From Prorocentrum cordatum (taxonomy: Eukaryota), in the NCBI GenBank assembly GCA_963575745.1, contig CAUYUJ010000006.1, positions 62,001 to 119,649 of the forward strand: a stretch of 57,649 nt of DNA, read 5' to 3'. Made by a program: the position numbers and the translations under genes. The notes under the pieces are model-generated. The model was given only the letters and a program-made list of their open reading frames with translations, did not search any database and was not told the DNA's origin. Below, one piece after another: positions 2,548 through 46,323 of this stretch (position 1 is the first letter of the stretch; every line of letters starts with the position of its first letter).

Positions 2548-2609
2548 GGGGTGCGCCACGCGTCGGGAGAGGACGTGGACGTGATGTACAACACGGGGAA
2601 CGGCTGGAG
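2548..2609 (+). CDS. C2 gene exon GVRHASGEDVDVMYNTGNGW(R)
   Basis: ctgcag|ggg acceptor after a C-rich tract; ag|gc donor; high GC3. Confidence 0.6.

Positions 2610-46323: not shown

What the first reader, a model, noticed from the sequence alone, without database searches (positions are those of the whole stretch)
2548..46323. Hidden gene split into ~20 micro-exons over 44 kb (about 2% coding), invisible to the ORF track
Seen: short non-repetitive, high-GC3 islands (about 10-75 nt), each with an AG acceptor and a GC, GA or GT donor. Their phases chain into one open frame. Knowledge: the chain reproduces copine-type C2A-linker-C2B motifs, and GC/GA donors with AG|G junctions are typical of dinoflagellates. 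Inference: exons as short as 10-19 nt are recognised inside multi-kb introns made of satellites and transposons, which raises the question of how exon definition works here.
Basis: partly seen in the sequence, partly recalled or inferred. Interest (0 to 1): 0.75.

Follow-up and report, generated by a model that had tools for sequence, protein, structure and literature searches.

The report
Short-exon acetyltransferase gene, not copine
The window holds about 40 kb from the middle of a real dinoflagellate gene whose coding sequence is cut into seven very short exons between repeat-filled introns, but it encodes a GNAT-type acetyltransferase, not a copine, and this gene architecture and most of these exons are already on public record.

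Summary
Its 21-residue peptide is identical to a transcript-derived 384-aa protein (P0003, MMETSP) and to an NCBI Prorocentrum cordatum model (P0002).

Mapping P0003 onto the window gives seven colinear + strand exons of 32-62 nt: 2548-2609, 12438-12471, 23265-23296, 27571-27624, 33884-33929, 38020-38055 and 42962-42998. They total 301 nt in 40,451 nt (0.74% coding) and read 100 codons without a stop. Every intron ends AG followed by G. Donors are GC (six) or GA (one).

The protein is a GNAT acetyltransferase by Pfam, PDB profile and predicted fold, with no C2 or copine signal.

The seven exons cover residues 25-126 with no gap, so there is no room for about 20 exons or for 10-19 nt exons.

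The public model already joins six of these exons, but places one donor 2 nt too far downstream, which frameshifts it. Long introns, GC/GA donors and short-exon genes are published for dinoflagellates.

The parts
2548..2609 (+). Exon a, 62 nt, phase 0 start. Encodes residues 25-45 of the GNAT protein (the last codon is split). Acceptor tgcag|G, donor G|gc.
   Evidence: A 21-aa exact match to P0003 and P0002. Boundaries come from the spliced alignment and joined translation.
12438..12471 (+). Exon b, 34 nt. Acceptor cgag|G, donor G|gc. The window reads R-S-V where all three MMETSP transcripts read R-Y-R-V.
   Evidence: An 11-aa exact match, VTLADPEDSKA. The S versus YR difference is seen. A (GAG)n array ends about 20 nt upstream.
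23265..23296 (+). Exon c, 32 nt, the shortest. Acceptor ggag|G, donor G|ga (GA donor at 23297). The public model uses a GC donor 2 nt downstream (exon end 23298), which shifts the frame.
   Evidence: An 11-aa exact match. The frame kept by the GA donor reproduces the EEFVRTHSALFA block conserved in homologues. P0002 equals the translation made with 23298.
27571..27624 (+). Exon d, 54 nt. Acceptor gcag|G, donor G|gc.
   Evidence: A 19-aa exact match.
33884..33929 (+). Exon e, 46 nt. Acceptor gcag|G, donor G|gc.
   Evidence: A 15-aa exact match.
38020..38055 (+). Exon f, 36 nt. Acceptor ccag|G, donor G|gc. In the frameshifted public model a TGA at 38021-38023 ends the protein here.
   Evidence: A 14-aa exact match.
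42962..42998 (+). Exon g, 37 nt. Acceptor cgag|G. The donor is most likely G|gc after 42998. The end is inferred from the rule that the other six exons all end in G; 43000 is the alternative. This is the last exon detectable in the window.
   Evidence: A 13-aa exact match, ASRYNFHAVYASG.
2610..42961 (+). Six introns of 9828, 10793, 4274, 6259, 4090 and 4906 nt. Tandem repeats (microsatellites plus satellites of 16, 32, 90, 152 and about 782 nt) make up 11-57% of each.
42999..57649 (+). 14,651 nt after exon g with no detectable exon for residue 127 onward. The invariant GCTLKCE block is absent. This is either part of a longer intron or the end of this gene copy.
46217..46323 (+). It has no support.
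   Evidence: It does not match P0003. A 40-aa in-frame query (46201-46320) found 0 proteins at E <= 0.001 among 1.84 billion representatives. It has no Pfam hit.

Best explanation
The window is an internal stretch of at least 40 kb of a nuclear gene of the dinoflagellate Prorocentrum cordatum. The gene encodes a 384-aa GNAT-superfamily (acetyl-CoA-dependent) N-acetyltransferase that is conserved across dinoflagellate transcriptomes.

Seven exons of 32-62 nt encode residues 25-126. In the predicted structure this is the N-terminal half of the GNAT fold (first strand, helices alpha1/alpha2 and an extra helical insert). The exons are separated by introns of 4-11 kb made largely of tandem repeats. 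They are joined at the usual dinoflagellate splice sites: the last exon base is G, the intron starts GC or GA, and the intron ends AG followed by an exonic G.

The exon(s) for residues 1-24 lie upstream of the window. Those for residue 127 onward lie more than 14.6 kb downstream or on another scaffold. A public 110-aa model equal to residues 275-384 sits on a different contig.

Shown: the exons, their frame, their splice dinucleotides, and the identity of the product family.

Inferred: that this particular copy is transcribed and spliced as drawn (the transcripts in hand differ at one site), the catalytic activity, and the total gene size. If the rest of the 1155-nt coding sequence is cut the same way, the gene would span roughly 150-200 kb.
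For: - Exact, colinear, + strand-only peptide matches of 11-21 aa to transcript-derived P0003. The background maximum is 6 aa.
- The strict spliced alignment scores 347, against 52-58 for the controls.
- The joined exons give 100 aa with no stop, identical to P0003 residues 25-125 except for S in place of YR.
- P0002 (CAK0788213.1, P. cordatum) residues 25-101 are the exact translation of window exons a-f with one donor moved by 2 nt.
- 28 proteins at E <= 0.001 among 8000 scored candidates, mostly from transcript-sized contigs (1.1-1.5 kb). All carry GNAT Pfam families and conserve the region encoded here: Y46, A51, D55, L62, F66, W86, Y89, L90, G91 and G126.
- Pfam PF00583 at 28.7 bits against a 20.7 cut-off.
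- The PDB profile search returned 41 sequences at E <= 0.1, of which the named ones are GNAT-type acetyltransferases.
- The AlphaFold model has pLDDT 75.7 and pTM 0.76. Its Foldseek top hits are PaiA, Naa10 and other GNATs.
- The splice pattern agrees with Table 2 of PMC10666404 for P. cordatum: donors GC 51.4%, GA 23.8%, GT 24.7%; AGG acceptors 79.7%; mean intron 4709 bp (passages read).
Against: - No RNA reads could be laid on the window, because no run was listed. Splicing of this very copy is therefore inferred from protein identity, not observed.
- All three MMETSP transcript proteins, and the 80%-identical P0004, read Y-R where the window reads S. Y46 is conserved in at least 90% of homologues. 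The transcripts in hand therefore come from another allele or copy, or the assembly has a small error here.
- No exon for residues 1-24 or 127-384 is in the window.
- The Pfam GNAT model covers only residues 178-275, which lie outside the window. The window-encoded part is assigned to the fold only through the structure prediction.
Confidence: 0.85

Rival explanations
1. This locus is a truncated or decaying duplicate of the expressed GNAT gene, either a 5' partial copy or a pseudogene. The expressed copy lies elsewhere in the genome.
For: - The window has S where every transcript has YR, at a position that includes a near-invariant tyrosine.
- There is no exon for residue 127 onward in the 14.6 kb after exon g, although the six introns here are all 10.8 kb or shorter.
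- The 3' end of the protein is modelled on another contig.
- Three transcript variants (D/E21, P/L226) show that several near-identical copies exist.
Against: - All seven exons are otherwise identical to the transcript protein over 99 residues, with no stop or frameshift.
- All 12 internal splice dinucleotides are intact, and GC3 is 0.89.
- A fragmented assembly explains equally well why the two ends sit on different contigs.
- The S/YR difference could be an allele or a small assembly indel.
Confidence: 0.2
2. One reading: a copine (C2A-linker-C2B) gene of about 20 micro-exons of 10-75 nt, running from 2548 to 46323.
For: Only that 2548 is a true exon start and that the splice-site types are right.
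Against: - The exon at 2548 belongs to a GNAT protein.
- Residues 25-126 are fully covered by seven exons, which leaves no room for more constitutive coding exons between 2548 and 42998.
- 0 of 409 + strand frame pieces hit C2 (PF00168) or Copine (PF07002). That scan is insensitive to very short exons.
- Shuffled proteins chain just as readily under permissive rules.
Confidence: 0.01
3. The public gene model is right: the GC donor after 23298 is the one used, and the locus makes a 101-aa protein that ends in exon f.
For: P0002 is exactly this translation. GC is the commonest donor in this genome. The annotation pipeline used transcript evidence (methods passage).
Against: - After EEFVR the model reads a frame that matches no homologue.
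- The GA donor 2 nt upstream restores the THSALFAREY...WCQYLGL block, which is conserved in the homologues and identical in three transcripts.
- P0002 has no Pfam family above its cut-off.
Confidence: 0.07

Closest known systems
[quoted passage not shown]
   Same: - Short exons in multi-kb, repeat-rich introns, and hard to annotate.
- GC/GA donors and AG|G acceptors.
- A mean intron length of 4.7 kb in P. cordatum (passages read).
   Different: This stretch is at the extreme end. Its mean exon is 43 nt against a genome mean of 240 nt. It is 0.74% coding, against roughly 11% for an average P. cordatum gene (2798 nt of coding sequence in 24,462 nt).
GNAT-superfamily N-acetyltransferases with solved structures: PaiA (1tiq), Naa10/Naa50/Naa60, RimI-like enzymes
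   Same: - A Pfam GNAT hit.
- An R-x-x-G-x-G segment (RGCGLG, residues 228-233), seen. The motif definition is recalled, not from a call.
- A GNAT fold by Foldseek: E 2e-7, TM-score on the target 0.70.
   Different: - Only 9-22% identity to the listed solved chains.
- About 384 aa against about 170 aa. It has an extra N-terminal helix, helical inserts, a variable low-confidence insert (about residues 140-175) and an invariant basic block, SKRLKRKRGE.
- The substrate is unknown.
- The catalytic half lies outside the window.
Public model CAK0788213.1 (P0002), 'unnamed protein product [Prorocentrum cordatum]'
   Same: It uses the same exons a, b, d, e and f, with the same boundaries.
   Different: Its exon c ends 2 nt later (23298). 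This frameshifts the rest and stops the protein at 38021-38023. Exon g and the whole GNAT catalytic half are missing from it.
Copines (two C2 domains plus a vWA-like copine domain)
   Same: Nothing that was tested.
   Different: No C2 or Copine Pfam hit, and the fold is alpha/beta GNAT.
Micro-exon genes and microexons of animals and plants (Schistosoma MEGs, recalled; <=51 nt or <=30 nt definitions, search listing)
   Same: 5 of 7 exons are 51 nt or shorter and run consecutively.
   Different: - None is 30 nt or shorter.
- Only 2 of 7 lengths are multiples of three, so skipping would break the frame.
- There is no sign of cassette use.

Membership tests
GNAT acetyltransferase superfamily (Pfam PF00583 and clan) | A profile match above the curated cut-off | tested here: met
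   P0003 scores 28.7 bits against a 20.7 cut-off on PF00583, over residues 178-275. P0004 and P0006 pass too. This holds for the full transcript protein. The matched residues are encoded outside the window.
GNAT acetyltransferase superfamily (Pfam PF00583 and clan) | Acetyl-CoA-binding motif A, Q/R-x-x-G-x-G/A, ahead of helix alpha3 (definition recalled) | tested here: met
   RGCGLG sits at residues 228-233. G231 is invariant in 28 sequences, and a helix at 232-247 follows.
GNAT acetyltransferase superfamily (Pfam PF00583 and clan) | A mixed alpha/beta GNAT fold that includes the N-terminal strand and helices | tested here: met
   Foldseek alignments of 261-272 columns to GNAT chains of about 170 residues, probability 1.0, TM-score on the target up to 0.75. 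The model has pLDDT 82-95 over residues 31-110.
GNAT acetyltransferase superfamily (Pfam PF00583 and clan) | Acetyl transfer from acetyl-CoA to an amine substrate | not testable with these tools
   This needs an enzyme assay.
Copine | Two N-terminal C2 domains (PF00168) | tested here: not met
   No C2 hit at E <= 1 in P0003, P0002, P0004 or P0006. 0 of 409 + strand frame pieces hit it.
Copine | A C-terminal vWA-like copine domain (PF07002) | tested here: not met
   The same calls gave no hit.
Copine | A beta-sandwich C2 fold for the encoded residues | tested here: not met
   Model residues 53-125 are mainly helices (H53-73, H83-89, H96-114, H120-125). All listed fold matches are GNAT enzymes.
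Dinoflagellate nuclear spliceosomal introns | GC/GA/GT donors preceded by G, and an AG acceptor followed by G | tested here: met
   In 6 of 6 introns the donors are GC (five) or GA (one), every acceptor is AG followed by G, and the last exon base is G. This agrees with Table 2 of PMC10666404.
Introner-element introns (inverted repeats at both intron ends) | An inverted repeat of 8-20 nt near the two ends of the same intron | tested here: not met
   The longest complementary stretch between the first and last 60 nt of the same intron is 4-8 nt. For the 30 mismatched intron pairs it is 4-11 nt. The test looked at exact matches within 60 nt, a wider span than the paper's 30 nt.
Microexon (<=30 nt definition) | Exon length of 30 nt or less | tested here: not met
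   The shortest exon is 32 nt. 5 of 7 meet the looser 51 nt definition.

The most novel reading that the evidence does not exclude
Seven consecutive exons of 32-62 nt are picked out of 40 kb that holds 3,055 AG acceptors, 9,191 G[C/A/T] donor dinucleotides and 46,760 open decoy 'exons'. There is no consistent polypyrimidine tract: purine-rich or G-rich sequence precedes exons b, c and e. There is no pairing between intron ends. One GA donor is chosen over a GC donor 2 nt away.

This would imply that dinoflagellates mark short exons by something other than the classical splice-site and exon-definition signals. Candidates are an exon-internal composition or codon code, or a co-transcriptional mark. 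It would also imply that tandem donors such as 23297/23299 may be used as a frame-switching, unproductive-splicing control.
Probability: 0.12. Interest if true: 0.6.

Novelty: new member of a known kind. Interest (0 to 1): 0.3.

Why it matters
- It corrects a public gene model. A 2-nt donor shift turns a conserved acetyltransferase into a 101-aa 'uncharacterized protein'.
- It suggests that the 5' and 3' ends, modelled on two different contigs, may belong to one very long gene.
- It gives a clean worked example of how sparse coding sequence can be in a bloom-forming dinoflagellate: 0.74% coding, with a mean exon of 43 nt.
- It is a caution for reading raw sequence. With dinoflagellate splice rules, almost any protein can be 'found' as a micro-exon chain, so a motif-level resemblance such as copine is not evidence.
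- The architecture itself is already described for this lineage.

Tried and rejected
- Whole-genome search: no genome is held for this window.
- RNA evidence: the look-up of sequencing runs listed no RNA holder, so read laying could not be used.
- Transcript DNA: the search for related loci with P0003 in metagenome contigs matched 55 pattern stretches, and none was confirmed. No nucleotide-level comparison with the transcripts was therefore possible.
- Six-frame Pfam scan for C2, copine or transposon domains.
  - Of 501 + strand stop-free pieces of at least 20 aa in 2000-47000, I scanned the 382 with at least 45 nt outside tandem repeats and dropped 119.
  - I also scanned 27 longer + strand pieces outside that range and 90 minus strand pieces of at least 110 aa.
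  - Only sub-threshold, low-complexity hits came back.
  - The E-value limits differed between calls: 1, 0.01, 0.001 and 0.0001.
  - The scan is blind to exons this short. The true exons gave no hit either.
- Spliced alignment with a light intron penalty (10) overfits, producing dozens of spurious micro-exons in repeats. I rejected it in favour of penalties of 22-30 plus exact matching.
- Exons for residues 1-24 and 127 onward: none was found by exact 4-mers, by spliced alignment with P0003 or P0004, or by a motif search for the LKCE block.
A 40-aa query makes this weak evidence.
- Intron-end inverted repeats: no better than mismatched controls.
- Rfam: 0 matches in the window.
- The repeat finder at 150 nt was swamped by microsatellites. 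I replaced it with a self-BLAST.
- Earlier findings of this scan: none for this genome, and one unrelated note.
- I considered a micro-exon or an alternative acceptor to explain YR against S. I rejected it because the frame fixes TCC directly before GTG ACC, and no AG precedes GTGACC.

Full report
**1. What the window is**

The window is 57,649 nt with 56.5% G+C. Tandem Repeats Finder (TRF) masks 37% of it as tandem repeats. No whole genome is held for it.

The organism follows from the proteins. The NCBI/UniRef entry CAK0788213.1 (P0002, 'unnamed protein product [Prorocentrum cordatum]', on a 119,649-nt contig) is, from residue 25 to its end, the exact translation of sequence in this window.

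**2. Checking the observation**

A Pfam scan of + strand reading-frame pieces found nothing, as expected for very short exons.

A 40-aa in-frame stretch starting at 2548 was searched against 5.8 billion proteins with 'longer' lengths. Two proteins came back among 12 candidates:
- P0002.
- P0003, a 384-aa ORF from an MMETSP transcript. It is 100% identical over exactly the 21 residues of 2548-2610 and carries Pfam PF00583.

Exact-peptide mapping of P0003 on all six frames gave seven matches of 21, 11, 11, 19, 15, 14 and 13 aa. All are on the + strand and in protein order. Nothing of 7-10 aa exists. The background maxima are 6 aa on the + strand, 5 aa on the minus strand and 6 aa for three shuffles.

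I wrote a spliced protein-to-DNA alignment with split codons, donors G[T/C/A/G] and acceptor AG. At intron penalties of 22-30 it returns the same seven exons for P0003 and for the 80%-identical P0004. At penalty 30 the true alignment scores 347. The minus strand and two shuffled proteins score 52-58.

**3. Anatomy**

The exons are:

| Exon | Coordinates | Length (nt) |
|---|---|---|
| a | 2548-2609 | 62 |
| b | 12438-12471 | 34 |
| c | 23265-23296 | 32 |
| d | 27571-27624 | 54 |
| e | 33884-33929 | 46 |
| f | 38020-38055 | 36 |
| g | 42962-42998 | 37 |

- They total 301 nt in a span of 40,451 nt, which is 0.74% coding.
- The joined frame gives 100 residues without a stop. It is identical to P0003 residues 25-125 apart from one site (section 5).
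- The introns are 9828, 10793, 4274, 6259, 4090 and 4906 nt.
- Every intron ends AG, every following exon starts with G, and every exon ends with G.
- Intron starts are GC (five) and GA (one, at 23297). The sequence after exon g is also GC.
- No donor is GT.
- GC3 of the exons is 0.89, and none of their bases is in a TRF-masked repeat. The introns are 11-57% tandem repeat.
- Repeats include long (TGA)n, (GTA)n and (GGA)n arrays, and satellites of 16, 32, 90 and 152 nt. A unit of about 782 nt is repeated at 29719-31553.

**4. What it encodes**

- P0003 hits only GNAT acetyltransferase families in Pfam: PF00583 at 28.7 bits against a cut-off of 20.7, over residues 178-275. There is no C2 or Copine hit at E <= 1.
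- A search with P0003 found 28 proteins at E <= 0.001 among the 8000 candidates scored. Most come from transcript-sized contigs, and all have GNAT families precomputed.
- In the 28-sequence alignment, the part encoded in the window is conserved: Y46, A51, D55, L62, F66, W86, Y89, L90 and G91 at 90% or more, and G126 invariant.
- A profile of that alignment matched 41 PDB sequences at E <= 0.1. The named ones are GNAT-type acetyltransferases (PaiA, Naa50/60, RimI, spermidine acetyltransferases), and all align to the C-terminal half.
- AlphaFold2 with the alignment gave pLDDT 75.7 and pTM 0.76, with pLDDT 82-95 for residues 31-110.
- Foldseek against the PDB gave 173 matches at E <= 0.001 among the best 500. 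The top matches are 1tiq (PaiA), Naa10 and other GNAT chains. They align over 261-272 columns and so include the N-terminal half.
- The window therefore encodes the first strand and the alpha1/alpha2 side of a GNAT fold. The acetyl-CoA motif (RGCGLG, residues 228-233; the motif definition is recalled) lies outside the window.

**5. What does not fit**

All three MMETSP variants (P0003, P0031, P0033) and P0004 read G-W-R-Y-R-V. The window, like P0002, reads G-W-R-S-V. The frame fixes TCC directly before GTG ACC, and no AG acceptor would allow another reading. This is therefore a DNA difference: another allele or copy, or a small assembly indel.

The transcripts themselves differ at D/E21 and P/L226, so several near-identical copies exist.

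No exon for residues 1-24 or for 127-384 is in the window. The invariant GCTLKCE block does not occur in any + strand frame after 43000.

A second public P. cordatum model, CAK0842268.1 (P0032, 110 aa), equals residues 275-384 and sits on a 397,578-nt contig. Either the gene is very long and broken between scaffolds, or this locus is a partial copy.

No RNA run could be listed and no transcript DNA was retrievable. Expression of this copy is therefore not shown.

**6. The public model**

Joining exons a, b, 23265-23298, d, e and f reproduces P0002 residues 25-101 exactly, followed by a TGA at 38021-38023. The annotation therefore already links six of the seven exons, but it uses the GC donor 2 nt downstream of the GA donor. 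The GA donor restores the block THSALFAREYKSVDHKTWCQYLGL, which is conserved in the family. I read the public model as frameshifted, although a minor unproductive isoform is not excluded.

**7.

The following are correct: a gene hidden from ORF finding, split into very short exons in repeat-rich multi-kb introns, with dinoflagellate GC/GA donors and AG|G junctions.

The copine identity is wrong (section 4).

The count of about 20 exons cannot hold. Residues 25-126 are covered without a gap by seven exons, so there is no room for further constitutive coding exons between 2548 and 42998.

Exons of 10-19 nt are not seen.

The terminal exon at 46217-46323 matches neither P0003 nor anything among 1.84 billion representatives at E <= 0.001 (weak evidence for a 40-aa query).

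With a light intron penalty, shuffled proteins align end to end through 46-47 exons with a median of about 21 nt. This shows how such a chain can be built for any target.

No transposon protein domain was found on either strand. Non-autonomous elements are not excluded.

**8. How it works**

Transcription must cross at least 40 kb. The spliceosome joins G|GC or G|GA donors to AG|G acceptors. These are the majority types in this genome: GC 51.4%, GA 23.8%, and AGG acceptors 79.7% (Table 2 of PMC10666404, passages read).

I looked for extra signals:
- Upstream of the acceptors, C/T-rich tracts precede exons a, d and g. Purine- or G-rich sequence precedes exons b, c and e.
- Pairing between the two ends of the same intron is no better than between mismatched introns: 4-8 nt against 4-11 nt.

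How exons below about 50 nt are recognised between long introns is a fair open question. The steric argument for exon definition is recalled. The search listing quotes that 94% of mammalian exons exceed 51 nt. However, this is a general question for dinoflagellates, not one special to this locus.

**9. Comparison and novelty**

Long introns (mean 4709 bp), GC/GA donors and repeat-rich introns are published for P. cordatum (PMC10666404). [quoted passage not shown]

This locus is an extreme example: a mean exon of 43 nt against the genome mean of 239.9 nt. It is a new, unnamed member of the GNAT superfamily conserved among dinoflagellates. It is not a new kind of system.

Interest is modest: a corrected gene model, a possible link between two contigs, and a warning about micro-exon chains read by eye.

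Noticed in passing
window 23297-23300: Two donors sit 2 nt apart (G|GA then GC). The conserved frame needs the GA donor, while the public model uses the GC donor. This could be a site of alternative, frame-breaking splicing.
   Followed up: partly
window 12438-12447: The window reads R-S-V where all transcripts read R-Y-R-V. This is a net 3-nt difference at a near-invariant tyrosine, caused by an allele, a paralogue or an assembly indel.
   Followed up: partly
P0003 residues 199-210 (outside the window): The basic block R-x-S-K-R-L-K-R-K-R-G-E is invariant or nearly so in 28 homologues. It looks like a nuclear localisation signal (my reading, recalled pattern). It lies in a low-confidence loop of the model.
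   Followed up: no
window 3128-4046 and 8362-9319: The same composite repeat, a 16-nt array next to a 152-nt satellite, occurs twice in intron 1. The two copies are about 81% identical over 639 nt.
   Followed up: partly
window 29719-31553: A unit of about 782 nt is repeated in tandem at 97.7% identity inside intron 4. It carries repeated open frames with no Pfam hit.
   Followed up: partly
window 39936-40599 and 20602-21510: A 90-nt satellite of 7.4 copies at 96% identity lies in intron 6. A 32-nt satellite of about 29 copies lies in intron 2.
   Followed up: no
window 10357-11955, 23409-25422, 14337-15155, 51883-52899: Very long impure trinucleotide arrays, (TGA)n, (GTA)n, (ATG)n and (GAT)n, run up to 2 kb. 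They give strong local GC skew and long spurious open frames on both strands.
   Followed up: no
window 17316-17982 and 56706-57250: Related 11/21-nt arrays (GGGGCCTCTTG type) appear in intron 2 and again near the window's end.
   Followed up: no
P0032 (CAK0842268.1), contig of 397,578 nt: A public 110-aa model is identical to the last 110 residues of the transcript protein but lies on a different contig from the 5' model. The cause is a split assembly or a second locus.
   Followed up: partly
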